64,000 nt of DNA, from positions 2,395 through 66,394 of the forward strand of contig JAIPBX010000002.1 in NCBI GenBank assembly GCA_021738485.1. The letters are read 5' to 3'. The stretch comes from Bacteroidales bacterium. GTDB lineage: Bacteria > Bacteroidota > Bacteroidia > Bacteroidales > JAIPAH01. Of the stretch, positions 6,468-39,745 are shown piece after piece. Position 1 is the first letter of the stretch. Every line of letters starts with the position of its first letter. Both the position numbers and the translations under genes were made by a program. Below the pieces are notes generated by a model, which ran no database searches, was not told the DNA's origin, and saw nothing but the letters and a program-made list of their open reading frames with translations.

Positions 6468-6471
6468 AGGA

Positions 6472-7602: not shown

Positions 7603-7611
7603 AGTGTTTGC

Positions 7612-7770: not shown

Positions 7771-7833
7771 AAATTGCAAATTCTTTTGTTCATAAACAAC
7801 GTCTTACGATTTAATTCTCTTATCAAAAAAGCC

Positions 7834-10867: not shown

Positions 10868-10868
10868 T

Positions 10869-16148: not shown

Positions 16149-16264
16149 AAATCCGGATATGGTTTTGGGTTCTAATATATTTTGTATTTTTATCTATTCA
16201 TTTGTCCAGGATTTTGTATTAAGATACAATATAAGCATGGTAGCAGAATAAACCGGTAGATCAT

Positions 16265-16633
16265 ATGAAAAAGAAGATACTAGTTATTGATGATGAAAAA
16301 ACTATTCGTATTCTTTTGAAAAACTACCTTCAAAAAGATTATGAAGTAATCACCAAAGAAAACGGCGAGGAGGGAATGGCATGGCTACAGCAGGGAATCA
16401 TCCCCGATTTAATTGTTGTTGATATCCAGATGCCCGTTATGGACGGATATGAGTTTATAAAAAATATCCGGGCCAGTGGTTATTTCAAGGATATCCCTTT
16501 GATTATGCTTTCCGGTATCGAAAGCAGTTCAGATAAAGTCAAAGCATTGAAGATGGGAGCCAATGACTACATGGTTAAACCCTTTAACCCGGAAGAATTA
16601 GCTGTGAGAATTCAGTTACATCTGGCACGATAG
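16265..16633 (+). CDS. Stand-alone response-regulator receiver (CheY-like, no output domain)
   Basis: 122 aa. Has VIDDE acidic pocket, phospho-acceptor in LIVVDIQMPVMDG, LSG (T/S position) and MVKPF (conserved Lys). Confidence 0.9.
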   Translation: MKKKILVIDDEKTIRILLKNYLQKDYEVITKENGEEGMAWLQQGIIPDLIVVDIQMPVMDGYEFIKNIRASGYFKDIPLIMLSGIESSSDKVKALKMGANDYMVKPFNPEELAVRIQLHLAR

Positions 16634-16667
16634 TAGTAGGAAAGCAATAAATCACAGGAATTTAACT

Positions 16668-17855
16668 ATGCAGGACTCAAACGGCAACCAAAAAAAATTT
16701 CATATAATATATATTGGAGGGGATATTAAAACAATTAACCCTTTCAAAGAGAGCTCGTTATTTGAAATAACCGTCAAAGAAAACAGTTTATCGGCTATCA
16801 ATTTTTTGTCCCGGGATGAAAAAATCGATGCCATATTGTGTGAGATGCATATTCCGGGAATCAATGGCATAGAAATATATAAACTTCTCCAATCCAAAAA
16901 AATACATCCTCAAACTCCCTTTATTCTGATAACGCATTCCTTTGATCCGAAAACTATACAGGAAGCACTCCAGCATAAAATAGACGACGTTTACCCCACC
17001 CCCCTGGATTTGGAAAAAATATACCAGCGGATTCAATTCCTGAAACACTATAAAAAAGAATATGAAATAGCTATACGCCCCAAACATGATCCACAGGAGT
17101 ACAAAATGCCGTTTTTTAAACGAGCTTTTGATATCCTTTTTGCCTTGATTATCATCCTCATTCTCTCCCCTATTTTTCTGCTGACCGCAATAGCTATCAA
17201 ACTTGAATCGAGCGGCCCACTCGTTTATACCTCAAAACGGGTTGGAACAGGCTATCATGTATTTGATTTTTATAAATTCCGCTCCATGTTTACGGGGGCC
17301 GATCAAAAACTAAAAGACCTTAAACATTTAAATCAATATTCGGCCGACGAAAATGGCAACAGTAATGAACTGGACACGGATTGTCCCGAATGTAAACGTT
17401 TAGGGAAACCCTGTTCACCGATACTTTTCATAGAAGGAAAAGAAATATGCGAGAATCAATACTTGCGTCAGAAAAAAGAGAATCCTCAATCCGCTTTTGT
17501 AAAAATTAAGGATGATCCGCGGATCACCAAAGTAGGGGCATTTATTAGAAAGACAAGTATTGATGAGTTACCCCAGCTTTTCAATGTGTTGAAAGGTGAT
17601 ATGTCTATCGTAGGCAACCGCCCGCTGCCTTTGTATGAAGCCGAGCTGCTGACCTCGGATGGATGGAGTGAACGGTTTCTCGGACCGGCTGGGATTACAG
17701 GACTGTGGCAGGTGTATAAGCGCGGACGTAGTGAAATGTCGGATGAAGAAAGAAAAGCACTGGATAACCAGTATGCAAGAAATAACTCATTTTGGTTAGA
17801 TTTGAAAATTATTCTGAGGACAATTCCGGCTTTGTTTCAGAAAGAAAAAGTTTGA
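16668..17855 (+). CDS. Priming polyprenyl-phosphate sugar-phosphate transferase (bacterial sugar transferase, WbaP/EpsB-like C-terminal domain) fused to an N-terminal degenerate receiver domain
   Basis: The C-terminal half has a TM helix, YKFRSM, DDPRITKVGAFIRKTSIDELPQLFNVLKGDMSIVGNRP. The N-terminal ~125 aa has a receiver fold pattern but with ILCEMHIPGINGIE (Glu where the phospho-Asp sits) and YPTP in place of the K-P motif. Confidence 0.85.
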   Translation: MQDSNGNQKKFHIIYIGGDIKTINPFKESSLFEITVKENSLSAINFLSRDEKIDAILCEMHIPGINGIEIYKLLQSKKIHPQTPFILITHSFDPKTIQEALQHKIDDVYPTPLDLEKIYQRIQFLKHYKKEYEIAIRPKHDPQEYKMPFFKRAFDILFALIIILILSPIFLLTAIAIKLESSGPLVYTSKRVGTGYHVFDFYKFRSMFTGADQKLKDLKHLNQYSADENGNSNELDTDCPECKRLGKPCSPILFIEGKEICENQYLRQKKENPQSAFVKIKDDPRITKVGAFIRKTSIDELPQLFNVLKGDMSIVGNRPLPLYEAELLTSDGWSERFLGPAGITGLWQVYKRGRSEMSDEERKALDNQYARNNSFWLDLKIILRTIPALFQKEKV

Positions 17856-17884
17856 CACATTTTTCATATATTGAAAAATGTGTC
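17854..17884 (+). terminator. Perfect 13-bp stem hairpin overlapping the stop codon of the sugar transferase
   Basis: GACACATTTTTCA-tatat-TGAAAAATGTGTC. No clear downstream T-run. A 233-nt gap follows before the next gene. Confidence 0.4.
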
Positions 17885-18088
17885 CCGATCCCGGACAAAA
17901 AGGATCGTAATCAAATAGAATTAGAACAGAAAAAAAATTAAAGTCAAGGGAGGACAAAAAAACATGTTCATAACTTATGGAAAACTTTTGTTTTTGGGTT
18001 ATGACAGACCAAACAATGTTTTTTATTTTTCCGTTTAAATTCAGAAATTGGAATTAAGAACATCTGAACGACGAATGTAAATCATATT

Positions 18089-27925: not shown

Positions 27926-29076
27926 AAATAGGTATAGAAGGACAAAGACTTTTCAGAAAGAAAAAACACGGCATGGACATGGTCGCCCTGGAGCTCATAA
28001 GGAACCTTCAGCAAATAGATCATGAAAATGAATACGTGGTGTTTGTGAAACCCGACGAGGATGACCAGGTGCTTACTGAAAGTGAAAATCTCACCATTCA
28101 TCCCATCGCAGGCGGTCCCTACCCTATCTGGGAACAAGTAAAACTGCCCAAAGCTGCGGCTGAGGAACAATGCGATTTATTGCATTGCACTTCCAACACG
28201 GCTCCTACAAGTTCGAAAGTGCCTATAATGATTACCCTGCATGATATCATCTACCTTGAAAGTCTTAGCATCATAAAAAAAAGCGGCACCTGGTATCAAA
28301 AATTAGGGAATCTTTATAGACGCTGGAATGTGCCGAAGGTGGTTAAAAAAAGTAAACGCATTATCACCGTTTCCGAGTTTGAAAAGGAACGAATCCGGGA
28401 TTTCTTTGGGTTCGCGGACAATGACTCTCGTTTGGAGGCTGTTTACAATGGCGTAAGCGAACATTTTCAGCCGGTTAGGGACTCAGCAAAACTCGGGGAA
28501 GTAAAAAATAAATATGGTTTACCCGATGAGTTTTTGTTCTTCCTCGGGAATACCGACCCGAAAAAGAATACGGAAGGTGTTATGGAGGCTTACTCTCAAT
28601 ACGTAAAAGAAACAGAGCAGCCCTTGCCATTGGTATTGCTTGATTACGAGGAAAAATTACTGGACCAGTTACTTAGAAGCAAAGGTATTGAGGATATTAA
28701 ATCGCAGATTATCCTTCCGGGATATGTGGTCAATAAAGACCTTCCTGCTATCTATTCAATGAGTGTAATCTTCCTTTATCCCTCGCTCAGGGAAAGTTTT
28801 GGCATACCCATGCTGGAAGCCATGTCTTGCGGTACTCCGGTTATTACTTCCAATACTTCTTCAATGCCGGAGGTTTCGGGAGGAGCGGCAAAAATTGTGA
28901 ATCCCTACAGCATTGATGAAATAAAAGAGGCCATAAAAGAGCTGGCAACCAATGAAGAGAAAAGAAATGAGCTCATCGAACAGGGATACAATCAGGCGGC
29001 TAAATTTACCTGGAAATCAATGGCAGAAAAGGTGTTACAGATTTATAAAGACGTTGTAAACAATCAAAAAAAATAG
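27922..29076 (+). CDS. GT4 (GT-B fold) glycosyltransferase
   Basis: The C-terminal E-x7-E region ESFGIPMLEAMSCGTPVITS is typical of Glycos_transf_1. 4-nt overlap with the upstream gene. Confidence 0.85.
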   Translation: MKIGIEGQRLFRKKKHGMDMVALELIRNLQQIDHENEYVVFVKPDEDDQVLTESENLTIHPIAGGPYPIWEQVKLPKAAAEEQCDLLHCTSNTAPTSSKVPIMITLHDIIYLESLSIIKKSGTWYQKLGNLYRRWNVPKVVKKSKRIITVSEFEKERIRDFFGFADNDSRLEAVYNGVSEHFQPVRDSAKLGEVKNKYGLPDEFLFFLGNTDPKKNTEGVMEAYSQYVKETEQPLPLVLLDYEEKLLDQLLRSKGIEDIKSQIILPGYVVNKDLPAIYSMSVIFLYPSLRESFGIPMLEAMSCGTPVITSNTSSMPEVSGGAAKIVNPYSIDEIKEAIKELATNEEKRNELIEQGYNQAAKFTWKSMAEKVLQIYKDVVNNQKK

Positions 29077-29080
29077 GATC

Positions 29081-30298
29081 ATGATTGAAAACCGGGATAT
29101 AATTTGTTTTGGACTTCAGCCCTGGGATTTAGACATCGCTTTTACCTTAAAATATACGGCCATAGAAATGTCGAAGAAAAACAGGGTTCTATTCCTGAAT
29201 CCTCCGCTGCATCGCAGCGAATTGATTAAACAGCCGAATCATCCGCGTATCAAAGACCGCAAAGCTGTAATGACAGGGAAAAAACCGGATTTGTATCAAT
29301 ATAATGATAATTTATGGGTCTTTACCCCAAAATCTGTTAATGAATCCATTAATTGGATCCCCTTTTCCTGGCTCCATGATCAGCTCAATTATATGAATGA
29401 CCGCAGGTTTGCTAAAGAAATCAAACGCGCCATCAAAAATCTGGACTTTAAGGATTATATTCTTTTTGATGATAATTCTATGCTTGTGGGATTTCATCTT
29501 AAAGAACTGTTGAAGCCGCAGCTATCAGTGTATCTTTTGAGAGATGCTGTGACACTTGTTTCTTATCACGCCCGCCATGGTAAACGACTGGAACCCGAAT
29601 TGATCCGCAAAATGGATTTGATGGTGGCCAATAGCAATTTTTTTGCCGAATATGGAAAAAAATTTAACAAACACTCATACCTGGTAGGCCAGGGCTGTGA
29701 TTTAGAATTGTATAACGATAAAGATGATACTATTGAAATACCGGAAGAACTAAAAGCCATAGAGCAACGTCCAATTATCGGGTATGTGGGGGCACTGACT
29801 ACCATTCGCCTGGATATTGACCGGCTGGTTCAATTAGCTGAGCAGAAGCCAAACTGGACGCTGGTGCTGGTGGGGCCGGAGGATGAGAATTTTAAGGCTT
29901 CCCGCCTGCACCAACTGGATAATGTGATTTTTCTGGGACGAAAAGATCCATCGACGCTGCCCGGCTATATTAAAGGTTTTGACGTAGCTATTAATCCGCA
30001 GGTGGTTAATCCGATTACCGATGTGAATTATCCGCTAAAAATCGATGAATACCTGGCCCTGGGGAAACCCACCGTAGCTTCAAAAACAACTTTCATGGAC
30101 TATTTTAAGGATTACACGTATCTGGCTGATACGCACCAGGAGTTTATTGATAAAATTGAACAAGCTTTGCAGGAGGATAGTCCACAGCTTCACAGTCAGC
30201 GCATAGATTTTGCTTCGTCCCATACATGGGAGAATTTTGTTGCTAAAATCTATAACCATATTGAAGAGGTGGAACAGGAAAAAATGAACGAGGCATGA
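29081..30298 (+). CDS. GT-B fold glycosyltransferase (TuaH/GT4-like)
   Basis: GYVGALTTIRLDIDRL...LVLVGPED...FLGRKD...FDVAINPQ...KIDEYLALGKPTVAS. Confidence 0.7.
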   Translation: MIENRDIICFGLQPWDLDIAFTLKYTAIEMSKKNRVLFLNPPLHRSELIKQPNHPRIKDRKAVMTGKKPDLYQYNDNLWVFTPKSVNESINWIPFSWLHDQLNYMNDRRFAKEIKRAIKNLDFKDYILFDDNSMLVGFHLKELLKPQLSVYLLRDAVTLVSYHARHGKRLEPELIRKMDLMVANSNFFAEYGKKFNKHSYLVGQGCDLELYNDKDDTIEIPEELKAIEQRPIIGYVGALTTIRLDIDRLVQLAEQKPNWTLVLVGPEDENFKASRLHQLDNVIFLGRKDPSTLPGYIKGFDVAINPQVVNPITDVNYPLKIDEYLALGKPTVASKTTFMDYFKDYTYLADTHQEFIDKIEQALQEDSPQLHSQRIDFASSHTWENFVAKIYNHIEEVEQEKMNEA

Positions 30299-31488
30299 TT
30301 GAAAACCGGGATATAGTGATAACGGGTCTTCAGAATTTTTATGGCGAAGGGGGTAGCAACGCGGTAAATATTGCCCGAAAACTGGCCATGAAAAACAGGG
30401 TCTTGTATGTCAATTATCCCCTGGATCGCAGTACCGTTCTGCGTAAAAGAAAAGACCCTGATGTTTCAAAGCGGCTCCGCGATATTCATAAAAAAAACCT
30501 GCCACTACAGCAGTATGAGGAGAATCTTTGGGTTTTCAACCCTCCGACTATTATGGAATCAACGAGTAAGATTCCTTTCGCACCGGTTTTCAACATGTTG
30601 ATGCGTATCAATAACAAACGCTTAGCCAGGCAAATACAAAGGGCCATAGATGAGCTTGATTTCCGGGATTTTATTCTTTTCGAGGATGGGGATATTTATC
30701 GTACCCTGTATTTGAAAGAGCTGCTGCAGCCCGGCCTGTTCATCTATTACAGTCGCGACAACATCACAGCCACCCGGTTTTATCGTCACCACGGTAAGCG
30801 CATCGAAAGCCTTATGATGAAAAAAGCGGATGCCGTATTGTGTAATTCCCAATACCTGGCTGATCTGGCCCTGCCATATAACCCAAACAGTTTTAATGTA
30901 GGTCAGGGTGTGGATCTCTCGCTTTTCCGCGAGCAAAAGGTAGCTTCCGATTTGAAAACAGATGAGATGAAGGTAGTCATCGGATATGCCGGGGCTTTGA
31001 ATGCAAACAGGCTGGATATTGAGCTGATACGTTTTCTTGCCGAAAGCAAACCTCAATGGCATATCGTTTTGGTGGGTCCTGAAGATGAGATTTTTAAAAA
31101 GAGCGCATTACATCGTTTGTCGAATGTTGTTTTTACCGGAAAAAAACCGCTGGAAAAGCTTCCTGCTTACATTCAGGGTTTTGATGTGGCGATTAATCCG
31201 CAGCTTGTCAATGATATCACTATCGGCAATTACCCCCGTAAAATCGACGAATATCTTGCTATGGGGAAACCTGTGGTGGCAGTAGAAACGGAAACCATGA
31301 AAATGTTCTCGGAGGTGGTTTTTCTGGCTGAGGATTATCAGGCGTTCCTGAAAGGATGCGAGCAGGCGCTGAAGGAAAAAGAGGAGAATGTAAACCGTCG
31401 GAAAGCGGTAGCCCGCGAGCATACGTGGGATCAAAATATAGAAAATATATCTCGGATCTTCAACGAAATTGAAAAACAAAAAAGATGA
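30295..31488 (+). CDS. GT-B fold glycosyltransferase, tandem paralog of the previous gene
   Basis: Both proteins start MIENRDI, and the first ~20 nt are identical (ATGATTGAAAACCGGGATATA). GYAGALNANRLDIELI...IVLVGPED...FDVAINPQ...KIDEYLAMGKPVVAV. 4-nt overlap. Confidence 0.7.
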   Translation: MIENRDIVITGLQNFYGEGGSNAVNIARKLAMKNRVLYVNYPLDRSTVLRKRKDPDVSKRLRDIHKKNLPLQQYEENLWVFNPPTIMESTSKIPFAPVFNMLMRINNKRLARQIQRAIDELDFRDFILFEDGDIYRTLYLKELLQPGLFIYYSRDNITATRFYRHHGKRIESLMMKKADAVLCNSQYLADLALPYNPNSFNVGQGVDLSLFREQKVASDLKTDEMKVVIGYAGALNANRLDIELIRFLAESKPQWHIVLVGPEDEIFKKSALHRLSNVVFTGKKPLEKLPAYIQGFDVAINPQLVNDITIGNYPRKIDEYLAMGKPVVAVETETMKMFSEVVFLAEDYQAFLKGCEQALKEKEENVNRRKAVAREHTWDQNIENISRIFNEIEKQKR

Positions 31489-32102
31489 GCATAAAAGACA
31501 TTGTACGCGACAATCCAAAGTTAAAAAAGCTGGCCCTTCGGTTGATGATGCCCCGCAACCAGGCCAGGCCCAGGCTCTGGGTGAAGTGGTTTGTCAATCC
31601 GTTTAAGCATAAAAAGGGGAAAAGGGCCCTGATTCGGCGCCGCACACGAATGGATGTGATGCCGTGGAATCGTTTTGAGGTGGGTAAAGATTCTACTATT
31701 GAAGACTTTGCTACTATCAATAATGGTGTGGGAGATATCATTATCGGTGAGCGCACGCGCATCGGGCTGGGCAATACGCTGATTGGCCCGGTGCATGTCG
31801 GCAACGACATTATGTTCGCTCAGAATGTGGTGGCAAGCGGGCTGAATCATGGCTACGAGGATGTAACGAAACCTATTCATAACCAGCCTACATCTACCAA
31901 ACTCATCACTATTGAGGACGGAGCCTGGATAGCGGCTAACAGTGTGATTACCGCCGGAGTAACCGTAGGAAAAAATGCGGTGGTGGCGGCCGGAAGTATA
32001 GTGGTGCGCGATGTTGAGCCATTTACCATTGTGGCCGGGAATCCGGCGAAACCTGTGAAGCAATACAGTACGGAGACACAAAAATGGGAGAAAATAAAAT
32101 AG
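31485..32102 (+). CDS. Hexapeptide-repeat (LbH) O-acetyltransferase, WcaF-like
   Basis: Left-handed beta-helix repeats (IGERTRIGLGNTLIGPVHVGNDI...IEDGAWIAANSVITAGVTVGKNAVVAAGSIV). Confidence 0.8.
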   Translation: MSIKDIVRDNPKLKKLALRLMMPRNQARPRLWVKWFVNPFKHKKGKRALIRRRTRMDVMPWNRFEVGKDSTIEDFATINNGVGDIIIGERTRIGLGNTLIGPVHVGNDIMFAQNVVASGLNHGYEDVTKPIHNQPTSTKLITIEDGAWIAANSVITAGVTVGKNAVVAAGSIVVRDVEPFTIVAGNPAKPVKQYSTETQKWEKIK

Positions 32103-32136
32103 GATATCAAAACTTTATTAAATCAATTGATTTATT

Positions 32137-33327
32137 ATGGAGACACTTGCGATTATTTTCTGGGTTCTTTTGCTATTGGTCTTCTATAGCTATCTGGGCT
32201 ATGCTCTTGTTTTGTTTATCCTGGTGCGTCTGAAGCGCATGCTGAAAACACAAAAATCTTCCTATAGGGATATAGAATATGAACCCGAGGTAACCCTGTT
32301 TGTGGCTGCCTATAATGAGAAAGACTACCTCGACCGAAAAGTGAAGAATGGCTTTGAGCTGAATTATCCGAATGAAAAAATCAGGCAGGTGTGGGTGACC
32401 GACGGTTCTGACGATGGCACACCGGAGCTTCTAAGGCAATATGATGGCGTAGAAGTATACCACAAGGATGAGCGTGCCGGGAAAATTGCTGCCATGAACC
32501 GGGGTATGCAGTTTGTGGAAAGCCCGATTGTTATTTTTTCGGATGGAAATACTATTCTTGGAAAGGATTCGATAAGGGAAATTGTGAATTTGTTTAAAAA
32601 TCCCAAAGTGGGCTGTGTATCGGGTGAGAAACGTATTTTCACCAAGGAAGCCGATGGGGCTAGCAGTGCCGGAGAAGGAATTTACTGGAAATACGAATCC
32701 ACGCTAAAGAAATGGGATTTTGAACTTTATTCGGTGGTAGGTGCCGCCGGTGAACTGTTTGCGATACGGCGGGAACTGTTCGAAGAAGTGGAGCGTGATA
32801 CCCTGCTGGATGATTTTATTATATCTCTGCGGGTAGCCCAAAAGGGTTATCGTATTGGATATAACCCCAACGCCTATGCCATTGAAAGTGCTTCGGCCAA
32901 TGTCAGGGAAGAACTGAAACGGAAAGTGCGGATTGCAGCAGGCGGGTTTCAGTCGATCGTTAGACTGAAATCTCTGTTAAATCCATTGAAATACAAAACG
33001 CTAACCTTTCAGTATATTAGCCATCGCGTCTTGCGCTGGACGGTGGCTCCTTTTTCGCTGCCTGTGATTTTTATTCTGAATGGTATCCTGGCCTGGCACC
33101 AGGGGTTTTTTACCCTGCAGCTTTATCCGGTGCTGTTTGGATTGCAAATACTCTTCTACCTGGCAGCTTTAGTGGGATGGTTCCTGGAGGAGAAGCAGCT
33201 ACGGATAAAGGTGCTTTTTGTGCCCTATTATTTTTTAATTATGAATTATTCTGTTTATCTTGGTTTTTTACGATATCTAAAAGGAGGTCAAACGGTAAAA
33301 TGGGAAAGAGCCATACGAGGACAATAA
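32137..33327 (+). CDS. Membrane-embedded GT2 glycosyltransferase (synthase-like, degenerate QxxRW)
   Basis: N-terminal TM, VAAYNEKD, TDGSDDGT, FSDGNT (D-x-D-like), VVGAAGELF, KRKVRIAAGG in place of QxxRW, and C-terminal TM helices. Confidence 0.75.
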   Translation: METLAIIFWVLLLLVFYSYLGYALVLFILVRLKRMLKTQKSSYRDIEYEPEVTLFVAAYNEKDYLDRKVKNGFELNYPNEKIRQVWVTDGSDDGTPELLRQYDGVEVYHKDERAGKIAAMNRGMQFVESPIVIFSDGNTILGKDSIREIVNLFKNPKVGCVSGEKRIFTKEADGASSAGEGIYWKYESTLKKWDFELYSVVGAAGELFAIRRELFEEVERDTLLDDFIISLRVAQKGYRIGYNPNAYAIESASANVREELKRKVRIAAGGFQSIVRLKSLLNPLKYKTLTFQYISHRVLRWTVAPFSLPVIFILNGILAWHQGFFTLQLYPVLFGLQILFYLAALVGWFLEEKQLRIKVLFVPYYFLIMNYSVYLGFLRYLKGGQTVKWERAIRGQ

Positions 33328-34964
33328 CTTTTGTGATAGTTTTAGGTATGATGCTGCTAACCGGACTGGAAAGCCTGGGGCAGTGCGACATCACAATTCC
33401 TTCTGAAACGAATTTGGTTGACGGAAATGATTATGACTTTCAACCCGGGGATGTGATATGCCTGGAAGGTGGAGAAAAACCTTACCTGCTGCTCCGGAAT
33501 ATTGATCCTGAAGGGAACTTTAATCAGCCTGTGACATTTCGTAATCACAACGGGGAAGTGACTTTCGATACGGACCATTACTATGGCATCTCCATTTCGA
33601 ATTGTAACAATATCGTGCTGAGTGGTAATGGAGACGATGATTATACGTATGGAATAAAAATTTTAAGGGTGGCTAACGGAACAGGATTAAGTATAGGCGA
33701 TCTTAGTTCTAAGGTTGAAGTGCGGGGGATTGAAATCAGTAACACCAACTATGCCGGGTTGATATCCAAAACGGACCCGTTCTGCGAAAACGGACAGATC
33801 AAAGGAACACGGGAGGATTTTATCCAGGAGGATATTATTATCCATGATAATTATATCCATCATACCGGTACGGAAGGCATGTACATAGGGAGCTCAAAAT
33901 ATTTGCAGGGTTTTGATGTGGAATGTAATGGCGATACGCAGCATGTACTTCCCCATGTCAACTCGGGAGTGCAAGTGTATGACAATCGCGTTGAATATAC
34001 GGGTTGGGACGGAATACAGGTTTCCTCAGCGGTGGATAATTGTGATATTTATGGGAATGATATTGACCATGACAGCGAAGAGGCCGCTTATAATCAAATG
34101 AGCGGTATGCTCATCGGAACGGCCAGTGTATGTGATTGCTACAACAATAAAATCATCGACGGAAAAGGCGATGGAATGGATATTCTGGGTGCAGGAAATC
34201 AAAAAATCTACAATAATCTGATTGTCAACGCTGGTCAAAGATATGACGGAAGTGGCAATGATAACAAACATGGCATTTATTCCGCTCACCTTTATACTTT
34301 TGACGGGGCCTACATGTATTACTATAATAATACGATTATCAATCCCCGCACCTATGGGATTAGCCATCGAAACGATCAACTGGAGAGCAGCAGGGCATAT
34401 AATAATGTCGTTATCGATCCGGGAGCGTACGAGGATGAAGGGGATGAGGCTTATATTCATCTCTCTTCCGAATCCATTCCGATGGATATGAAAAACAATT
34501 ATTTTGGTCAGAACGTTAATACGGCAGGTTTTGACCAGCCGGAAAATAATAATTTCGACCTACAAGTGAATTCCTCGTTGGTTAATGCCGGACGATCAAT
34601 AGGCGGGATAAATTTTGATATTGAGAACCGAACCCGCCCTCATGCAGGAGGGATGGATATCGGGGCCTATGAATGTCATAAACCGGGCGTGGGAATAGAA
34701 GAATACGACAACAACAGCCAAGTGAAGGTGTTTCCCAACCCGGCGAGAACAAAATTGGCGATTGAAGTTTATTTGCCCCGACCTTCAGATTGTTCTTTGA
34801 CGATCTTTAATGTGATGGGCCAAACCGTATTTTCATCTACCATGCGACAGAAAAAAACAAAACATAAGTGGATGATTCCAGTACCCCAATGGGTTTCAGG
34901 CTCTTACTTTTATCAATTGGAATCATTGAATAAACAGTGGAGAGGAAAATTTTTTAAACATTAA
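33300..34964 (+). CDS. Secreted right-handed parallel beta-helix protein with T9SS C-terminal sorting domain (possible polysaccharide lyase, hydrolase or epimerase)
   Basis: I chose the start at MGKSHTRTITFVIVLGMMLLTG (33300). It has repeated N-x-I/V-x-G/N beta-helix rungs (ISISNCNNIVLSGN, IHDNYIHHTG, VYDNRVEYTG, IYGNDIDH, CYNNKIIDG, IYNNLIVNAG, YYNNTIINP, AYNNVVIDP). The C-terminus VKVFPNPARTKLAIEV...YFYQL is T9SS-like. Confidence 0.7.
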   Translation: MGKSHTRTITFVIVLGMMLLTGLESLGQCDITIPSETNLVDGNDYDFQPGDVICLEGGEKPYLLLRNIDPEGNFNQPVTFRNHNGEVTFDTDHYYGISISNCNNIVLSGNGDDDYTYGIKILRVANGTGLSIGDLSSKVEVRGIEISNTNYAGLISKTDPFCENGQIKGTREDFIQEDIIIHDNYIHHTGTEGMYIGSSKYLQGFDVECNGDTQHVLPHVNSGVQVYDNRVEYTGWDGIQVSSAVDNCDIYGNDIDHDSEEAAYNQMSGMLIGTASVCDCYNNKIIDGKGDGMDILGAGNQKIYNNLIVNAGQRYDGSGNDNKHGIYSAHLYTFDGAYMYYYNNTIINPRTYGISHRNDQLESSRAYNNVVIDPGAYEDEGDEAYIHLSSESIPMDMKNNYFGQNVNTAGFDQPENNNFDLQVNSSLVNAGRSIGGINFDIENRTRPHAGGMDIGAYECHKPGVGIEEYDNNSQVKVFPNPARTKLAIEVYLPRPSDCSLTIFNVMGQTVFSSTMRQKKTKHKWMIPVPQWVSGSYFYQLESLNKQWRGKFFKH

Positions 34965-34968
34965 AATT

Positions 34969-35787
34969 ATGAATATTAAGCCTGTACTAAAACGTGTTAT
35001 CCCTTTCCAGGTAGGTGTTAAACTAAGAGGAGGCTACCAAAAGTTTCTTAAAATAATATACCAGGGCAACAACTATTATTGCCCTTTTTGCGACAATTCG
35101 TTTCGCACGTTCCTGAAAGGAGGATATCCTAATCCGCTGGCGGAAAAGATGGAAATTATCGGTGCCGGGAAGCGTTCTAATATGTTATGCCCCCGATGCT
35201 ATTCGACAGATCGCGATAGGTTAATCTATCTGTATTTGAAAGAAAAGACGGATGTGTTTGATAAGTCTCAAAGAATTCTTCATATTGCCCCGACGGGAAG
35301 TCTGAAACATTTGCTGGAAAATATCCCCCACCTTCAATATGAAACGGGAGATAAATATGAAGAGGGATACAGAGGCTATTATTATGATAGGGACGTAATC
35401 CAGATGGATGTTACAGCACTGCCCTACGATGATGATCAGTTCGATATGGTCATCTGCAATCATGTGCTTGAGCATGTCAAGGAAGATATTGCTGCTATGA
35501 AAGAAATCAGGAGGGTGATGAAAAAACAGGGAAAAGCGATTCTGCAGGTACCTGTGGCAATGGCATTGCCCGAGACGGATGAAGATGACCCGGGAAATGC
35601 TCAGGAAAGGGAAAATAGGTTCGGACAGTTTGATCATGTACGTCTCTATGCCCGCGATTATAATGAACGTATGAAAAAAGCGGGCTTTACCGTGGAAGTA
35701 CATAATCCGGGAAATGACGGATGGGATAAGAAATATAAAAAATTGTCGATTAACCCATTGGAAAATGTATATGTGGGTATAAAATAA
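34969..35787 (+). CDS. Class I SAM-dependent methyltransferase with N-terminal Cys4 zinc-ribbon-like motif
   Basis: YYCPFCDNSF...CPRCYSTDRDR (CxxC...CxxC), then ILHIAPTG and FDMVICNHVLEHV (Methyltransf_11-like). Confidence 0.7.
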   Translation: MNIKPVLKRVIPFQVGVKLRGGYQKFLKIIYQGNNYYCPFCDNSFRTFLKGGYPNPLAEKMEIIGAGKRSNMLCPRCYSTDRDRLIYLYLKEKTDVFDKSQRILHIAPTGSLKHLLENIPHLQYETGDKYEEGYRGYYYDRDVIQMDVTALPYDDDQFDMVICNHVLEHVKEDIAAMKEIRRVMKKQGKAILQVPVAMALPETDEDDPGNAQERENRFGQFDHVRLYARDYNERMKKAGFTVEVHNPGNDGWDKKYKKLSINPLENVYVGIK

Positions 35788-35791
35788 GCTT

Positions 35792-38521
35792 ATGAAGTAT
35801 CGGTGGTTAATTGGTTATCTGCTTACTGCTCTTTTGCTTCTATGTGCCGGTATTATGGCGCGGGGTGCTGCCCTGCCTGATACCGGGACGGACAGTGCAA
35901 TAATGCAGGGGCTCCTGATTCCGGAGGATAACAGAAGTACGCTGTATAATCAACTATCGGTAACACATACAGGTGTTGAGCCTGACAGTGTCGGAAAACA
36001 AGGGGGTAAGGCCTCTCATAAAGCTTTCCGATGGATAGAATCGGGGAATTATTTTTTGCACAGGGGAATGGCGGATTCGGCAGTAACCTTGTATTTGAAA
36101 GCTAAAAATGTGTTTGAGAAGCAGAGTCACGGTCAGGGATTGATGCATAGCTTTAACAACCTGGGAGTTACCTATCATAAATATCAAGCCAGTGACATCG
36201 CTTTAAATCAATTAAAGCAAGCACTTGTCTTGAGTCGAAAGGCTGCCGTGCCTGCTCATGAAAAAGCCACGGTTTTCGCTAACCTGGCCACGGTTCACCA
36301 TTCGAAGAATCAGTCCCGGATAGCTTTTCAATATGTGGATTCGGCCACGCAGGTGATGAGCGGAAACCATACACCTGAAAGGAGGGCTACGGTGTATGCA
36401 AATCTGGCTATGTTTTTTACGTCCGTGGAACGTTTTGACAAGGCCCTGATCTATTTGCAAAAAGCCGGAGATTTGTTGGACCAAAAGGAAAACGGGCGGA
36501 TGAAAGCTTTTGTCTGGAATGATTTGGCCGCTGTGTACCGAAACATCTACAACTATGACAAAGCTTTAAATTACTACCAGAGAGCTTTTGACATTCAAAA
36601 ATCCATAGGAGATACAATTCGAATGGCTTTCCTAAACAACAGTATCGGACAAATCCAGCTTGAACGAAAAGCTTACGAAGAAGCCGGCAAACACTTTTCC
36701 AGGGCTGTGCTCTTAAATAGTAAACTTAGCGATGAGAAGGGAGTGCTGGAAAATATTCAATCCCTCTCCTCCACTCTTTTGAAACAAGGTAAACCTCTAA
36801 AGGCCAGAGATACTTTACACGCGTATCTTCCCCGTGCAGAAGCTTTGGGCGATTACGCCCTGCTCAGCGATTTTCACAGGCTGTTGGGTTTATCTTATAG
36901 CCTGAATAATCAGTATGCGCGGGCGCTGGAACATCAATCGCTTACAAAGACTTATACTGATTCGCTACATGATAAACAGCAGGATTTCCGTACTGAGTTT
37001 TTCACAACCCGGGGAAAGCTCAAACAACGCTGGCACTCCCTGCGCGTTAATAATTTACAGGAGCATCTTGAAAGGCAGGAAGCAGACCGCAGGGTTTCTT
37101 ATCCGGCAATAGGCGGAATAGCTCTTCTGGGAGGAATATTGGTATTTTGGTTGGTTGTTCGGAACAAAAGAATGAAAAAAGGTTTTCAGCAGCAACTCCA
37201 GGAAAAAAATCGGAAAATTAAGGAAACGCAAAAGCAACTGGAGGAATCGTCCACGGATATTGAAGCCAAGGTAAATGAAAGAACGAAAGAGCTTCAGAGA
37301 GAGATGGAGAAGTATAAGAAGAAGGACGTGGACCTGAAAAAGGCACTGAAGGATGCCGAGGAGGCCAATTATCTTAAAAATGCTTTTCTGTCGAATATGA
37401 GTCATGAAATACGGACTCCCCTTAATGGTATTATTGGTTTTTCAAGCCTCCTTGAGACGGAACTGTCGCTCATGGAAAATAAAGAGCTTTATGAATATGC
37501 CCAGGGCATACAAACTTCCGGCGAGCGGTTGCTACATCTGCTTAATAATATCATTGATATCAGCCGTATTGAGGCCAATGATTTGCAGGTTTCACTCCAG
37601 GAGACCAACATTCAGCAAATTATCGAAAAAAGCGCGGATTTGTTTAAGTTTAAGGCCAATGAAAAAGGGCTGAAATTCAATATGAAGCTGGAAGAAACGC
37701 CCATGGTATATGCCGATCCGACAAGTTTATCCAAAGTGGTATCAGATATTATTGATAATGCCGTAAAATATACTGAAAAAGGATTTGTGAATATAACCAG
37801 CGGATATGTTTCTGACAAGATGGAAGTATTTGTCAAAATCCGCGATACAGGGGTGGGGATAGATGAAAATTATCTGCCCCGAGTATTTGAGGCTTTTCGC
37901 CAGGAAAGCCTTGGCTATTCAAGGGCCTACCAGGGAGCAGGTTTGGGCTTGCCTCTTGCCAAAAGGCTCCTGGAACTTATGAATGGGCGGATTGAGCTTA
38001 ATTCTAAAAAAGACCAGGGAACGAATGTGATTATCTATATTCCGACAAAGGAAAAAGCCAGGGATAAGGGCTCTCAGCAACAGCATCCTTCTTCCGGGAA
38101 GAAGCCGGCCCCTGAGCTCATAAAACCGATGAATGAAATCACTATTCTGTTGGTGGAGGATGACCGTATGAACCGGCTGGTGATCAATAAAATGCTGGAG
38201 AATGACTGGAACGTGGTGGCTACAGAAGACGGTGATCAGACACTGGAAGAGGTCGGTAAAGCTCATAAAAAGGGACAGATTTTTGATTTGATGCTCTTTG
38301 ATATCAACTTGCCCAGCCCCTGGGATGGTATACAACTCATGCATCACCTGCGTAAAAAGTACCCCGAATACAAAGAGGTGCCTTTCATTGCCCAGACGGC
38401 ATACGCGATGCGTACGGACAGAAGGCGGCTTTTGGAAGAGGGTTTTGATGAATATATATCCAAGCCAATCAACCAACAGCGTCTTCTGACGATGATTTAT
38501 AATTTTTTAAGCCGGAAATAA
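35792..38521 (+). CDS. Hybrid sensor histidine kinase: signal peptide, TPR-repeat sensor region, one TM, coiled coil, HisKA, HATPase_c, receiver
   Basis: H-box NMSHEIRTPLNGIIGF, N-box VVSDIIDNAVKYT, DTGVGI, GAGLGLPLA. The receiver has LLVEDDRMN, LMLFDINLP and YISKP. Confidence 0.9.
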   Translation: MKYRWLIGYLLTALLLLCAGIMARGAALPDTGTDSAIMQGLLIPEDNRSTLYNQLSVTHTGVEPDSVGKQGGKASHKAFRWIESGNYFLHRGMADSAVTLYLKAKNVFEKQSHGQGLMHSFNNLGVTYHKYQASDIALNQLKQALVLSRKAAVPAHEKATVFANLATVHHSKNQSRIAFQYVDSATQVMSGNHTPERRATVYANLAMFFTSVERFDKALIYLQKAGDLLDQKENGRMKAFVWNDLAAVYRNIYNYDKALNYYQRAFDIQKSIGDTIRMAFLNNSIGQIQLERKAYEEAGKHFSRAVLLNSKLSDEKGVLENIQSLSSTLLKQGKPLKARDTLHAYLPRAEALGDYALLSDFHRLLGLSYSLNNQYARALEHQSLTKTYTDSLHDKQQDFRTEFFTTRGKLKQRWHSLRVNNLQEHLERQEADRRVSYPAIGGIALLGGILVFWLVVRNKRMKKGFQQQLQEKNRKIKETQKQLEESSTDIEAKVNERTKELQREMEKYKKKDVDLKKALKDAEEANYLKNAFLSNMSHEIRTPLNGIIGFSSLLETELSLMENKELYEYAQGIQTSGERLLHLLNNIIDISRIEANDLQVSLQETNIQQIIEKSADLFKFKANEKGLKFNMKLEETPMVYADPTSLSKVVSDIIDNAVKYTEKGFVNITSGYVSDKMEVFVKIRDTGVGIDENYLPRVFEAFRQESLGYSRAYQGAGLGLPLAKRLLELMNGRIELNSKKDQGTNVIIYIPTKEKARDKGSQQQHPSSGKKPAPELIKPMNEITILLVEDDRMNRLVINKMLENDWNVVATEDGDQTLEEVGKAHKKGQIFDLMLFDINLPSPWDGIQLMHHLRKKYPEYKEVPFIAQTAYAMRTDRRRLLEEGFDEYISKPINQQRLLTMIYNFLSRK

Positions 38522-38530
38522 GAGCACCTT

Positions 38531-39745
38531 ATGGGAGAACAAAAGTCGGATAGCCCGGAAAAAAGTCTTAAACAGAAAGAACAGGAAATTGCTGAGCTGG
38601 AAAAACATTTTCTCAGCGAGAAAAACAAGCTTTACCATAGCAATAAAATGGTGTTGCACAACCTTAGTTATGACTTGCGTATACCTATTAATGGTATCAT
38701 TAGCATGCTGGAGATGTTTGATACCAGCACCCTTACGCGTCAACAAAAAGATCAGCTTCGGGCTATCAAGTCTTCTGTAAAGAATTTGTCGCAAACTGTG
38801 GAAGATATGATGACGTTTTCGGCGTTGCTGAGCGATAGAGTGGAAATGAAAGAGGAGGCGTTTGACTTGCCGGCTTTTGTGGAGGAGTTAAAAAATCAGT
38901 TTGAACTTACTGCCAGCGGCAAAAATATTGGATGGAAAATCAGTCGCGAAGATGAGATGCCGCAGCAAGTGATCGGGGATAAGTATCATCTCAGGCAAAT
39001 CCTGGTGAATCTTTTGAGCAATGCCTTCAAAAATACCATCGAAGGAGAGGTGGTGCTTCATTGGCAAAAGCTGAACCAATCCGGGAAAAATATGCAGATA
39101 CGATGGAGTGTTTCGGATACGGGCACAGGCATGAGTCCGGAAAAACAGGAAAATATTCGCCAACATCTGCATCAAACCAAAGATCCGAGTTTTATTATTT
39201 CAGAAGAAGTGGGCCTTGGGCTGGCCCTGGTATACTATCTGTCGCAAAAACTGAATGGTTCGTTCAATTTTGAAAGCGATCCGGCTTCGGGAAGTCGCTT
39301 TTATGTCGATCTCCCTTTGAAAAAGCCAGAAGAAACAACCACTATCGAAAAGCATCCATACCATACGGCAAGCCCTAAACGCATTTTATTGGTGGAGGAT
39401 AACTACCTGAATCAGAAATTTGCTTCCGCAGCACTTCAAAAGGCGGGTCATAAACTGGATATTGCGGAGAATGGGAAAGTTGCCTATCAGAAATACCAAC
39501 AAAACGATTATCACCTGATTCTTATGGATATTGAGTTACCCCTGACCGACGGGATACAGGTCACCAAATCTATTCGCAGAGAAGAAAAGAAATACCATTA
39601 CCACTATACACCCATTATAGCGGTAACAGCCTATGCTATCGAGCATGACCGCACCAAATGCCTTAATGCGGGCATGGATGAGTATCTCACCAAACCGTTC
39701 AGACCGGAAGAGTTATTAGACCTTATAGAACGTATGGTTTCCTGA
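38531..39745 (+). CDS. Soluble hybrid histidine-kinase-like protein with degenerate H-box (Tyr at the phospho-His position) plus a canonical receiver
   Basis: The H-box region is VLHNLSYDLRIPINGIISM, with a TAT codon at 38669-38671 where His is expected. N-box ILVNLLSNAFKNT, DTGTGM and GLGLAL are intact. The receiver has LLVEDNYLN, LILMDIELP and YLTKPF. Confidence 0.8.
   Translation: MGEQKSDSPEKSLKQKEQEIAELEKHFLSEKNKLYHSNKMVLHNLSYDLRIPINGIISMLEMFDTSTLTRQQKDQLRAIKSSVKNLSQTVEDMMTFSALLSDRVEMKEEAFDLPAFVEELKNQFELTASGKNIGWKISREDEMPQQVIGDKYHLRQILVNLLSNAFKNTIEGEVVLHWQKLNQSGKNMQIRWSVSDTGTGMSPEKQENIRQHLHQTKDPSFIISEEVGLGLALVYYLSQKLNGSFNFESDPASGSRFYVDLPLKKPEETTTIEKHPYHTASPKRILLVEDNYLNQKFASAALQKAGHKLDIAENGKVAYQKYQQNDYHLILMDIELPLTDGIQVTKSIRREEKKYHYHYTPIIAVTAYAIEHDRTKCLNAGMDEYLTKPFRPEELLDLIERMVS

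What the first reader, a model, noticed from the sequence alone, without database searches (positions are those of the whole stretch)
16265..39745. 18-gene same-strand Wzx/Wzy exopolysaccharide locus bracketed by a phosphorelay with no Hpt domain and no DNA-binding output
Every gene from 16265 to 39745 is on the + strand. Most junctions are overlaps or gaps of 36 nt or less; the exceptions are gaps of 233, 59 and 100 nt after 17855, 24725 and 26622. The locus begins with a stand-alone receiver and a receiver-like domain fused to the priming transferase, and it ends with two hybrid kinases 9 nt apart. Four proteins carry receiver-type domains, but none carries a recognisable DNA-binding or Hpt domain. 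This suggests signalling may act post-translationally on the first committed enzyme of polymer synthesis rather than on transcription. The locus also has no recognisable nucleotide-sugar synthesis gene and no Wza/OPX exporter.
Basis: partly seen in the sequence, partly recalled or inferred. Interest (0 to 1): 0.78.

Follow-up and report, generated by a model that had tools for sequence, protein, structure and literature searches.

The report
Receiver-controlled sugar-priming enzyme in polysaccharide locus
This is a real 18-gene exopolysaccharide locus of an uncultured Bacteroidales bacterium whose first enzyme carries a dead receiver domain and is always paired with a live single-domain receiver, which fits signalling that acts directly on the enzyme, an idea shown only once before and in a different form (Myxococcus EpsW-EpsZ).

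Summary
There are 18 + strand genes at 16265-39745, with the stated gaps and domains. No Hpt, HTH, nucleotide-sugar or Wza/OPX gene was found. Three corrections apply. (1) The second "hybrid kinase" (38531-39745) has Tyr in place of the phospho-accepting His, so it is probably a pseudokinase with an intact receiver. (2) A conserved half-size TolC-like outer-membrane protein (18089-18832) sits beside the co-polymerase and is the likely exporter. (3) The same-strand run starts upstream, at mutL (7976).

The core is a two-gene module: a phosphorylatable stand-alone receiver followed by a pseudo-receiver fused to a PglC-like phosphoglycosyl transferase. This pairing occurs in 72 of 77 homologous loci across Bacteroidota. 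The two kinases are syntenic at the 3' end in all four Bacteroidales relatives examined. In other lineages the same module lies next to HK-REC-Hpt kinases, stand-alone Hpt proteins or sigma-54/LytTR regulators. The missing Hpt and DNA-binding output are therefore real here but specific to this lineage.

Post-translational control of the priming enzyme is the best reading. It has a 2025 precedent (EpsW-EpsZ) and remains untested here. I rate this a new variant of a known kind, of moderate interest.

The parts
16265..16633 (+). Stand-alone receiver (122 aa), competent for phosphorylation: D9-D10, D53, S83, K105. Closest to OmpR/PhoB-type receivers.
   Evidence: Pfam REC 101 bits. NCBIfam best hits are RpaB and PhoB; the EpsW model scores 73 bits against a cut-off of 200. 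The key residues are conserved in 69-73 of 73 orthologues.
16668..17855 (+). Pseudo-receiver (about residues 10-130) fused to a small monotopic phosphoglycosyl transferase (PglC-like), with a Cys4 insertion (C239, C242, C249, C261).
   Evidence: Pfam Bac_transf 201 bits and REC 44 bits. The AF2 REC fold has pLDDT about 90. Foldseek finds PglC 8e37 and REC domains. E59 is invariant in 72 close homologues, with GG replacing the acidic pair and no Lys.
17854..17884 (.). 13-bp perfect hairpin immediately after the PGT stop codon, at the start of the 233-nt gap. No T-tail on the + strand.
   Evidence: region z-score -2.5.
18089..18832 (+). Half-size TolC/OMF-like outer-membrane protein (247 aa) with a signal peptide and a single OEP repeat. 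Candidate exporter replacing Wza/OPX.
   Evidence: Pfam OEP 51 bits. NCBIfam TolC positions 6-199 of 414. The AF2 model shows a beta-hairpin and a 72-residue helix. Foldseek finds CusC, OprM and TolC with TMq about 0.5 and TMt about 0.3. It lies next to the PCP in 30 of 69 loci.
18832..21747 (+). Polysaccharide co-polymerase (971 aa) with two periplasmic LysM domains and a C-terminal cytoplasmic domain carrying a Walker-A-like PEAGKT motif.
   Evidence: Pfam LysM 97 bits; Wzz and GNVR are below their cut-offs. NCBIfam chain-length-determinant models reach E 2e-17. PslE and Wzc in the PDB match at E 0.004-0.006.
21757..23238 (+). Divergent Wzx (MOP) flippase.
   Evidence: NCBIfam MOP flippase E 3e-7. 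11 of 13 orthologues hit Polysacc_synt_3 or Polysacc_synt.
23226..24725 (+). Wzy-type polymerase.
   Evidence: Pfam Wzy_C 49.5 bits, cut-off 31.7.
24785..33327 (+). Eight genes for repeat-unit assembly and modification: GT2, GT2, GT2, GT4, two TuaH-like GT4, a hexapeptide acetyltransferase and a PgaC-like GT2.
   Evidence: Orthologues occur in loci across the phylum, with E down to 1e-176.
33300..34964 (+). Secreted right-handed beta-helix protein with a T9SS C-terminal sorting domain. Probably modifies or cleaves the polymer. The ORF opens at 33177.
   Evidence: Pfam Beta_helix and Por_Secre_tail. Start codons and signal peptide. Syntenic in L087-L090.
34969..35787 (+). SAM-dependent methyltransferase.
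   Evidence: Pfam Methyltransf_11 and _23. Syntenic.
35792..38521 (+). HK1: hybrid sensor kinase. The TPR domain lies between a signal/TM segment and a second TM segment, so it is extracytoplasmic. It is followed by HisKA (SHEIRTP), HATPase and an intact REC.
   Evidence: The H-box is conserved in orthologues.
38531..39745 (+). HK2: soluble HisKA-like, HATPase and REC protein without the phospho-accepting His (Y47, NLSYDLRIP) and without the E/DxxT/N phosphatase motif. The ATP-binding boxes and the REC are intact.
   Evidence: In the alignment, close relatives have Y, Q, G or H at this site, while more distant ones have canonical SHEIRTP.

Best explanation
The region is a conserved Bacteroidota Wzx/Wzy-type exopolysaccharide locus, and polymer initiation is the point at which it is regulated.

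Shown. The priming enzyme is a PglC-like small monotopic PGT. Its N-terminus is a receiver-fold domain that cannot be phosphorylated. A genuine phosphorylatable single-domain receiver is encoded immediately upstream almost everywhere. In this lineage a TPR-sensor hybrid kinase (HK1) and a His-less kinase-like protein with an intact receiver (HK2) close the locus.

Inferred. HK1 senses an envelope or extracytoplasmic cue and phosphorylates the stand-alone receiver. It does so either directly or through an Hpt encoded elsewhere. The phosphorylated receiver then binds the PGT, most likely through its pseudo-receiver, and switches its activity. This gates use of undecaprenyl phosphate without new transcription. 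HK2 modulates the flow, acting as a phosphate sink, a scaffold or a partner of HK1.

The lipid-linked repeat unit is flipped by Wzx and polymerised by Wzy with the PCP. The polymer probably leaves through the half-size TolC-like protein. It is trimmed or modified by the beta-helix protein that is secreted through the T9SS.
For: - All 120 listed homologues of the PGT fusion (top 120 of 8000 scored) match along the full length, and 119 carry both REC and Bac_transf. There are 596 hits among GTDB species representatives.
- A stand-alone REC lies upstream in 72 of 77 loci. The median spacing is 10 nt, and the two genes overlap in 24 of 73 cases.
- The stand-alone REC keeps its acidic pair, phospho-Asp, Ser/Thr and Lys in 69-73 of 73 orthologues. 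The PGT domain lacks the acidic pair and the Lys everywhere, although the REC fold is predicted at pLDDT about 90.
- P84, D107, Y/F109, R121 and L125 on the alpha4-beta5-alpha5 side of the pseudo-receiver are conserved, while its alpha1 region is not.
- HK1 and HK2 are syntenic in L087-L090. In L089, which lies on the same contig as L005, they sit about 22 kb from the PGT.
- Hybrid kinases abut the module in 9 of 70 loci from other classes.
- Hpt-containing relays lie directly beside the stand-alone REC in sister loci. This marks that REC as a relay end-point.
- Precedent: EpsW~P stimulates the PGT EpsZ post-translationally, and receiver fusions to small monoPGTs have been noted in the literature (PMC12802240).
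Against: - There is no direct evidence of contact between the receiver and the PGT, and no evidence for the sign of any effect.
- The test for reciprocal OmpR-type salt bridges (g01 D101/R115 against g02 R121/D107) showed no supporting covariation. Some clades have T/E at these g01 positions.
- The pseudo-receiver is no closer to g01 (23% identity) than to other receivers.
- Small monoPGTs are monomers, so the dimerisation logic of EpsZ may not transfer (PMC12802240).
- Sister loci carry sigma-54 regulators (9 of 80) or LytTR regulators (6 of 80), so a transcriptional branch is common in the family.
- Only 64 kb of this genome is visible. An Hpt or a DNA-binding regulator may lie elsewhere.
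Confidence: 0.55

Rival explanations
1. The main output is transcriptional. The hybrid kinases feed an unlinked Hpt and a DNA-binding regulator (for example an NtrC-type sigma-54 activator) that controls eps transcription. On this view the stand-alone receiver is a phosphate sink or side branch, and the pseudo-receiver on the PGT is a structural or localisation domain.
For: Sister loci place NtrC-type regulators next to the module in 9 of 80 cases and LytTR regulators in 6 of 80. Hpt domains occur in 18 of 80. The receivers of HK1 and HK2 carry a PFxxxTAY / TAY segment that resembles the FATGUY-like motif of intermediary receivers (PMC9981736). Only 64 kb of the genome is visible.
Against: No Hpt or DNA-binding regulator occurs in the window or in the flanks of nine Bacteroidales relatives. 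This view does not explain why a live REC is coupled to the PGT gene in 72 of 77 loci, nor why the PGT keeps a folded receiver domain. The two outputs are not mutually exclusive.
Confidence: 0.22
2. The pseudo-receiver docks the PGT onto the kinases. It would mimic a response regulator at the DHp domain of HK1 or His-less HK2. The kinase complex would then regulate or localise the PGT directly, and the stand-alone receiver would compete for the same site.
For: HK2 keeps a DHp-like domain and an ATP-binding domain but has lost both the kinase motif and the phosphatase motif. This recalls DivL, which reads the state of a single-domain regulator (PMC4211667). The kinases and the PGT are co-inherited.
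Against: The alpha1 region of the pseudo-receiver, which is the usual face that contacts DHp, is poorly conserved. The REC-PGT module persists in many loci that have no adjacent kinase. HK2 has a canonical His in more distant syntenic loci.
Confidence: 0.1
3. The regulatory genes are merely neighbours of an ordinary EPS operon and control something else.
For: Two-component genes are abundant in Bacteroidota. The + strand run also includes unrelated housekeeping genes.
Against: The REC and PGT genes are adjacent in 72 of 77 loci across several classes, often with overlapping stop and start codons. The kinase pair is conserved at the locus end at 36-79% identity. Kinases abut the module in differing arrangements.
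Confidence: 0.03

Closest known systems
Myxococcus xanthus EpsW-EpsZ (a single-domain response regulator that activates the initiating PGT; PMC12802240)
   Same: A phosphorylatable receiver-only protein is encoded with Wzx/Wzy EPS genes. Regulation is proposed at the first membrane-committed step and is post-translational. No DNA-binding output is involved.
   Different: EpsZ is a large WbaP-type monoPGT with a TMH bundle and a DUF, and EpsW is thought to promote its dimerisation. Here the PGT is a small PglC-type enzyme with a pseudo-receiver fused in cis. The receiver is not an EpsW equivalog (73 bits against a cut-off of 200). The kinase is a TPR hybrid HK, not the CheA-type DifE.
Receiver-domain fusions to small monoPGTs catalogued by sequence-similarity networks (O'Toole et al. 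2021, as cited in PMC12802240)
   Same: The domain architecture is the same: REC plus Bac_transf.
   Different: I could only read the mBio paper's summary of that work (the paper is not held). That summary does not mention that the fused receiver is degenerate, that it is paired with a live stand-alone receiver, or the conserved EPS and kinase context found here.
Unorthodox HK-REC-Hpt phosphorelays (ArcB/BarA/TorS type) and the Rcs relay that controls colanic acid
   Same: HK1 and HK2 score best against the TorS, BarA and ArcB models. Sister loci of this module do use HK-REC-Hpt kinases or stand-alone Hpt proteins. Rcs also controls a Wzx/Wzy capsule.
   Different: There is no Hpt in this locus or window. 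The terminal receiver has no DNA-binding domain, whereas Rcs ends in the transcription factor RcsB.
Caulobacter DivL (a kinase homologue with Tyr in place of the phospho-His; PMC4211667)
   Same: HK2 has Tyr at the H-box His position and keeps a kinase-like fold. A single-domain regulator is part of the same pathway.
   Different: HK2 has a C-terminal receiver and no PAS domains. The loss of His is recent and patchy: Y, Q, G or H in close relatives and canonical His further out.
Staphylococcus aureus CapB-CapM (tyrosine phosphorylation of a small monoPGT; cited in PMC12802240)
   Same: A small monoPGT is controlled post-translationally. The co-polymerase here also has a C-terminal P-loop-like domain.
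   Different: The signal here is His-Asp signalling through receiver domains. No BY-kinase family match or Tyr-rich tail was detected in the co-polymerase.

Membership tests
Wzx/Wzy-dependent polysaccharide pathway | Initiating polyprenyl-phosphate phosphoglycosyl transferase | tested here: met
   Bac_transf 201 bits. Foldseek finds PglC. The KRxxD...SP re-entrant helix and the D299-E300 dyad are invariant.
Wzx/Wzy-dependent polysaccharide pathway | Wzx (MOP) flippase | tested here: met
   The protein itself scores only 29.6 bits against the NCBIfam MOP flippase model. 11 of 13 orthologues hit Polysacc_synt_3 or Polysacc_synt.
Wzx/Wzy-dependent polysaccharide pathway | Wzy polymerase | tested here: met
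   Wzy_C 49.5 bits, above the 31.7 cut-off.
Wzx/Wzy-dependent polysaccharide pathway | Polysaccharide co-polymerase (Wzz/Wzc type) | tested here: inconclusive
   Wzz (21.7 bits) and GNVR (21.6 bits) are below the Pfam cut-offs. NCBIfam chain-length models reach E 2e-17 but are below their cut-offs. PslE and Wzc match at E about 0.005. The two-TM topology with a periplasmic coiled coil fits.
Wzx/Wzy-dependent polysaccharide pathway | OPX (Wza, Poly_export) outer-membrane exporter | tested here: not met
   No Poly_export hit in any ORF of the window. A half-size OEP protein occupies the position beside the PCP.
EpsW-EpsZ type regulator-activated PGT | Phosphorylatable single-domain receiver encoded with the EPS genes | tested here: met
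EpsW-EpsZ type regulator-activated PGT | The receiver is an EpsW equivalog | tested here: not met
   NF041866 scores 73 bits against a cut-off of 200. Generic OmpR/PhoB receivers score higher.
EpsW-EpsZ type regulator-activated PGT | The PGT is a large monoPGT (four-TMH bundle plus a cytoplasmic DUF lacking the beta-hairpin) | tested here: not met
   The protein is 395 aa and consists of a pseudo-REC and the catalytic domain only. The EpsZ model scores 153 bits against a cut-off of 800.
EpsW-EpsZ type regulator-activated PGT | The phosphorylated receiver binds the PGT and stimulates it | not testable with these tools
   This needs multimer modelling, binding assays and enzyme assays.
Canonical receiver domain (for the PGT N-terminus) | (beta-alpha)5 CheY-like fold | tested here: met
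   AF2 pLDDT is about 90 over residues 10-130. Foldseek finds PorX, CheY and CpxR receivers.
Canonical receiver domain (for the PGT N-terminus) | Acidic pair, phospho-accepting Asp and conserved Lys | tested here: not met
   GG/Gx replaces the acidic pair. E59 is invariant in close homologues; across the phylum the position is E34/D14/N8/Q7. There is no Lys.
Multistep His-Asp-His-Asp phosphorelay | Hybrid kinase with an H-box His and a receiver | tested here: met
   HK1 has SHEIRTP, DD, D, T and K. HK2 lacks the His.
Multistep His-Asp-His-Asp phosphorelay | Hpt domain or protein | tested here: not met
   None by Pfam in any large ORF. None by a custom Hpt HMM in six frames. Hpt is present in 18 of 80 homologous loci. 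The rest of the genome was not visible.
TolC / outer-membrane factor family (for 18089-18832) | OEP repeat with a beta-hairpin and long periplasmic helices | tested here: met
   OEP 51 bits, above the 22 cut-off. AF2 model and Foldseek hits to CusC, OprM and TolC. The beta-hairpin is modelled at low confidence.
TolC / outer-membrane factor family (for 18089-18832) | Two tandem repeats per protomer (about 430-500 aa), forming a trimer | tested here: not met
   The protein is 247 aa and covers TolC model positions 6-199 of 414. Orthologues are 217-303 aa.
DivL-type pseudokinase (for HK2) | The phospho-accepting His is replaced while the kinase fold is kept | tested here: met
   Y47. The N, G1 and G2 boxes are invariant.
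DivL-type pseudokinase (for HK2) | Reads the phosphorylation state of a single-domain regulator through its DHp domain | not testable with these tools
   This needs binding assays.

The most novel reading that the evidence does not exclude
Across Bacteroidota, a monomeric small PGT is switched on or off when a phosphorylated stand-alone receiver pairs with a dead receiver fused to the enzyme. This would be a receiver/pseudo-receiver heterodimer acting as an allosteric switch on the first step of glycan synthesis. In the same reading, the polymer leaves through a half-size TolC-like channel, perhaps a hexamer, rather than through an OPX protein. That would be a further outer-membrane route for Wzx/Wzy polymers.
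Probability: 0.3. Interest if true: 0.75.

Novelty: new variant of a known kind. Interest (0 to 1): 0.55.

Why it matters
How bacteria ration undecaprenyl phosphate among competing glycan pathways is poorly understood. The only demonstrated case of a response regulator acting on a priming transferase is Myxococcus EpsW-EpsZ (2025). Its authors left open how receiver domains regulate small, monomeric PGTs.

This locus family offers a widespread, genetically compact test case. It is found in at least 596 species representatives, including cultivable Flavobacterium, Pedobacter, Mucilaginibacter, Marinifilum and Cyclobacterium. It consists of one live receiver, one dead receiver fused to the enzyme, and an identifiable kinase input.

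The family also shows one output module wired to different relay designs: with a fused Hpt, with a separate Hpt, or with none. It further suggests a TolC-like alternative to Wza for polysaccharide export.

Tried and rejected
- A metagenome scan with HK2 alone returned only six distant loci and gave no synteny information. I used exact-protein look-ups instead.
- A covariation test of the proposed reciprocal beta5/alpha5 salt bridges between the stand-alone REC and the pseudo-REC gave no support. The one significant association (p = 0.001) is negative and follows clades. The specific OmpR-style interface is therefore not claimed.
- I tested whether the pseudo-REC arose by tandem duplication of the neighbouring REC. 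This is not supported: 23% identity, lower than the 27-32% between that REC and the two kinase RECs.
- The sigma-70 promoter and terminator scan of 15900-18300 was no better than shuffled sequence, and the consensus does not suit Bacteroidota. Transcription units remain undefined.
- PDB sequence searches for the flippase found nothing.
- No NCBIfam model reached its cut-off for any of the 18 proteins.
- Literature searches found no description of this Bacteroidota locus. The O'Toole 2021 paper is not held.
- I considered a 'shifted His' (H43, four residues before Y47) as an alternative phospho-site in HK2. I rejected it as a general explanation because P0137 and P0140 have no His at either position.
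- A cryptic Hpt or HTH domain inside the four signalling proteins is ruled out by residue bookkeeping and Pfam. The only unassigned stretches are TM and coiled-coil linkers of 70 aa or less.


Full report
OBSERVATION

The three larger gaps are 233, 59 and 100 nt. The two kinase genes are 9 nt apart. All other junctions are overlaps or gaps of 34 nt or less. The longest ORF of gene 15 (33177) overlaps gene 14. An ATG at 33300 or 33348 precedes a signal peptide and matches the length of the orthologues.

The + strand run actually starts at 7976 with mutL, two rhomboid genes, two EEP-family genes and uvrB. The locus is therefore delimited by gene function, not by strand. It ends against a convergent FKBP gene.

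None of the following is present: an Hpt, a DNA-binding domain, a Poly_export (Wza) domain, or a nucleotide-sugar enzyme. I extended the Pfam scan to all other large ORFs of the window. I also built an Hpt HMM from Hpt domains found in homologous loci and ran it on all six frames. Nothing scored better than E 0.63. In the four signalling proteins, every stretch long enough to hold a hidden domain is already assigned.

WHAT THE PARTS ARE

Gene 1 is a receiver-only protein with the complete phosphorylation pocket: D9, D10, D53, S83 and K105. It is closest to OmpR/PhoB-type receivers.

Gene 2 has a PglC-like catalytic domain. Bac_transf scores 201 bits. The re-entrant-helix KRxxD...SP motif and the D299-E300 dyad are invariant. 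Foldseek's top hits are PglC structures. Before the catalytic domain lies a domain that AlphaFold2 models confidently as a (beta-alpha)5 receiver, with pLDDT about 90. That domain has GG in place of the acidic pair, Glu59 in place of the phospho-Asp, and no conserved Lys. It is a pseudo-receiver.

Gene 3 is a signal-peptide protein of 247 aa with a single OEP repeat. Its model has one long beta-hairpin (low confidence) and a 72-residue helix. It matches CusC, OprM and TolC over half of their length.

Gene 4 is a co-polymerase with two periplasmic LysM domains. It shows weak similarity to PslE and Wzc.

Gene 5 is a divergent Wzx; 11 of its 13 orthologues hit the Wzx Pfam families. Gene 6 is Wzy. 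Next come eight glycosyltransferase and acetyltransferase genes, a beta-helix protein secreted by the T9SS, and a methyltransferase.

HK1 has a TPR region between an N-terminal hydrophobic segment and a second transmembrane segment, so the TPR region is extracytoplasmic. It also has a canonical H-box (SHEIRTP), an ATPase domain and an intact receiver.

HK2 has the same kinase-plus-receiver architecture, but its H-box reads NLSYDLRIP. Tyr replaces the phospho-accepting His, and the E/DxxT/N phosphatase motif is also lost. In an alignment of relatives, this position is Y, Q, G or H in the closest clade (41-80% identity) and a canonical His further out. The ATP-binding boxes and the receiver stay highly conserved throughout. 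HK2 is therefore best called a pseudokinase with a live receiver.

COMPARATIVE EVIDENCE

The PGT fusion has many full-length homologues. All 120 listed hits (the top 120 of 8000 scored) match along the full length, and 119 carry both Pfam domains. The best 80 loci span Bacteroidales, Flavobacteriales, Sphingobacteriales, Cytophagales and Chitinophagales.

I called ORFs in these loci and searched them with the 18 window proteins. The results were:
- A receiver-only gene lies immediately upstream of the PGT in 72 of 77 loci that have upstream sequence. The median spacing is 10 nt, and the two genes overlap in 24 of 73 cases.
- These receivers keep the acidic pair, Asp, Ser/Thr and Lys in 69-73 of 73 cases.
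- The PGT-borne domain never has the acidic pair or the Lys. Its position 59 is E, D, N or Q.
- Residues on the alpha4-beta5-alpha5 side of the pseudo-receiver (P84, D107, Y/F109, R121, L125) are conserved. Its alpha1 region is not.
- The OEP-like gene and the co-polymerase follow the PGT in about half of the loci.
- Many glycosyltransferases are clear orthologues, with E down to 1e-176. This suggests a conserved polymer.

The kinase end lies outside the 10-kb flanks of that scan, so I looked up HK2 relatives by exact sequence. Four of four Bacteroidales contigs end the same way: GT4, GT4, acetyltransferase, sometimes an extra methyltransferase, GT2, beta-helix, methyltransferase, HK1, HK2. 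In three of the four the same downstream neighbours follow. This holds at 79%, 41% and about 36% HK2 identity. One of these contigs is also the contig of locus L005, which puts HK2 about 22 kb from the PGT, as in the window. In other classes a hybrid kinase lies within 700 nt of the module in 9 of 70 loci, in varying orientations.

A FINDING THAT CHANGES THE INTERPRETATION

Those adjacent kinases in other classes are unorthodox HK-REC-Hpt proteins (L020, L021, L045, L052, L075 by Pfam; L025, L028, L058 by HMM). In L016, L029, L042 and L077 a stand-alone Hpt protein of 112-128 aa lies immediately upstream of the stand-alone receiver. L015 has a REC-Hpt protein. In total, 18 of 80 loci carry an Hpt domain. 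Ten of these 18 loci supplied the Hpt sequences the custom HMM was built from, so they match it by construction; nine of those ten (all but L077) also pass Pfam's own Hpt cut-off.

NtrC-type sigma-54 activators sit beside the module in 9 of 80 loci. LytTR regulators occur in 6, and REC-PP2C proteins in 3.

Two conclusions follow. First, the stand-alone receiver is the end-point of a phosphorelay in this family. This strengthens the link between signalling and the PGT. Second, the absence of Hpt and of a DNA-binding regulator is real for this Bacteroidales clade. None was found in the window or in the flanks of nine relatives. It is not, however, a general feature of the system. An Hpt or a transcriptional branch elsewhere in this genome cannot be excluded from 64 kb of sequence.

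MECHANISM

The following is shown:
- the domain make-up of the proteins;
- the dead pocket of the PGT receiver;
- the live pocket of its partner;
- the module's conservation across the phylum;
- the synteny of the kinases.

The following is inferred. HK1 responds to an envelope cue and phosphorylates the stand-alone receiver, directly or through an unlinked Hpt. The phosphorylated receiver then binds the PGT and changes its activity.

The precedent is M. xanthus EpsW~P, which acts post-translationally on the PGT EpsZ. The authors of that study note that small monoPGTs can carry receiver domains whose role is unknown (PMC12802240).

I tested one concrete interface model, OmpR-type reciprocal Asp-Arg bridges (PMC9981736). 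I found no supporting covariation, and some clades have incompatible residues. The contact surface is therefore open. The sign of regulation is unknown.

The role of HK2 is uncertain. It may be a phosphate sink, a scaffold, or a DivL-like reader of the receiver's state (PMC4211667).

COMPARISON AND NOVELTY

This locus works like EpsW-EpsZ but is not a member of that family. The receiver is not an EpsW equivalog, the PGT is of the small type and not the large type, and the kinase type differs. The REC-PGT architecture itself has been catalogued before.

Four things appear new. I found no description of them in the literature:
- the fused receiver is a pseudo-receiver throughout the family and is obligately paired with a live receiver;
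- the module is conserved across the phylum within a complete EPS machinery;
- the module is wired to relay designs with a fused Hpt, a separate Hpt, or no Hpt;
- in this clade there is a His-less HK2, and a half-size TolC-like protein stands where an OPX exporter would be expected.

I rate this a new variant of a known kind, with interest 0.55.

Noticed in passing
window 18089-18832: A half-size TolC-like protein (one OEP repeat, 247 aa, with a signal peptide) is conserved next to the co-polymerase in about half of the homologous loci. No Wza/OPX gene is present. It may form a channel of six subunits rather than three.
   Followed up: partly
window 38531-39745 (residue Y47): The second kinase has Tyr at the phospho-accepting His position. 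Close relatives have Y, Q, G or H there. Several of those without the His carry a His four residues earlier. The ATP-binding boxes and the receiver remain conserved.
   Followed up: partly
window 17382-17450 (PGT residues C239, C242, C249, C261): The PGT catalytic domain carries an insertion of about 60 residues with four conserved cysteines (CPxC...C...C). It is present in 39 of 80 family members and may bind zinc. It is modelled at low to moderate confidence.
   Followed up: partly
window 19420-19725 (co-polymerase residues about 197-298): Two LysM peptidoglycan-binding domains are inserted in the periplasmic part of the co-polymerase. Orthologues outside the Bacteroidales subclade lack this segment of about 220 residues.
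   Followed up: partly
window 17854-17884: A perfect 13-bp hairpin lies directly after the PGT stop codon, at the head of the 233-nt gap. It has no T-run on the + strand. It may separate the REC-PGT pair from the export genes, or it may stabilise the transcript.
   Followed up: partly
window 51210-53372 (-): A third kinase has the same TPR sensor design as HK1 but no receiver domain. It lies 11.5 kb downstream of the locus, next to a weak NTP_transferase-like gene (53521-54420).
   Followed up: no
window 7620-7793 (-): A cobalamin riboswitch (Rfam RF00174, 62 bits) lies at the head of a periplasmic-binding-protein, FecCD permease and ABC ATPase operon (4411-7779). This is presumably a B12 uptake system.
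   Followed up: no
L002 7253-9921: In a related Bacteroidales MAG, the stand-alone receiver gene is split by an insertion of about 2.1 kb. The insertion carries three ORFs arranged like an IS66-family element. This is a natural knock-out of the regulator.
   Followed up: partly
L015 6697-9406; L029 7915-9617; L016 9193-9531; L020 6456-9245: Homologous loci in other lineages place Hpt proteins, HK-REC-Hpt kinases with HNOBA or PAS sensors, and NtrC-type sigma-54 regulators directly beside the receiver-PGT module.
   Followed up: yes
L020 14962-16098; L028 15142-16281; L030 14684-15829: In Mucilaginibacter versions of the locus, a receiver fused to a PP2C (SpoIIE) phosphatase is embedded among the EPS genes. 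This is another output that does not bind DNA.
   Followed up: no
window 2681-4414 (-), 33300-34964 (+), 43243-44889 (-): Three proteins in the window carry T9SS C-terminal sorting domains: an EEP-family nuclease/phosphatase, the beta-helix protein of the locus, and an S8 peptidase.
   Followed up: no
window 10010-14010: Two tandem rhomboid-family genes are followed by two tandem EEP-family genes, between mutL and uvrB.
   Followed up: no
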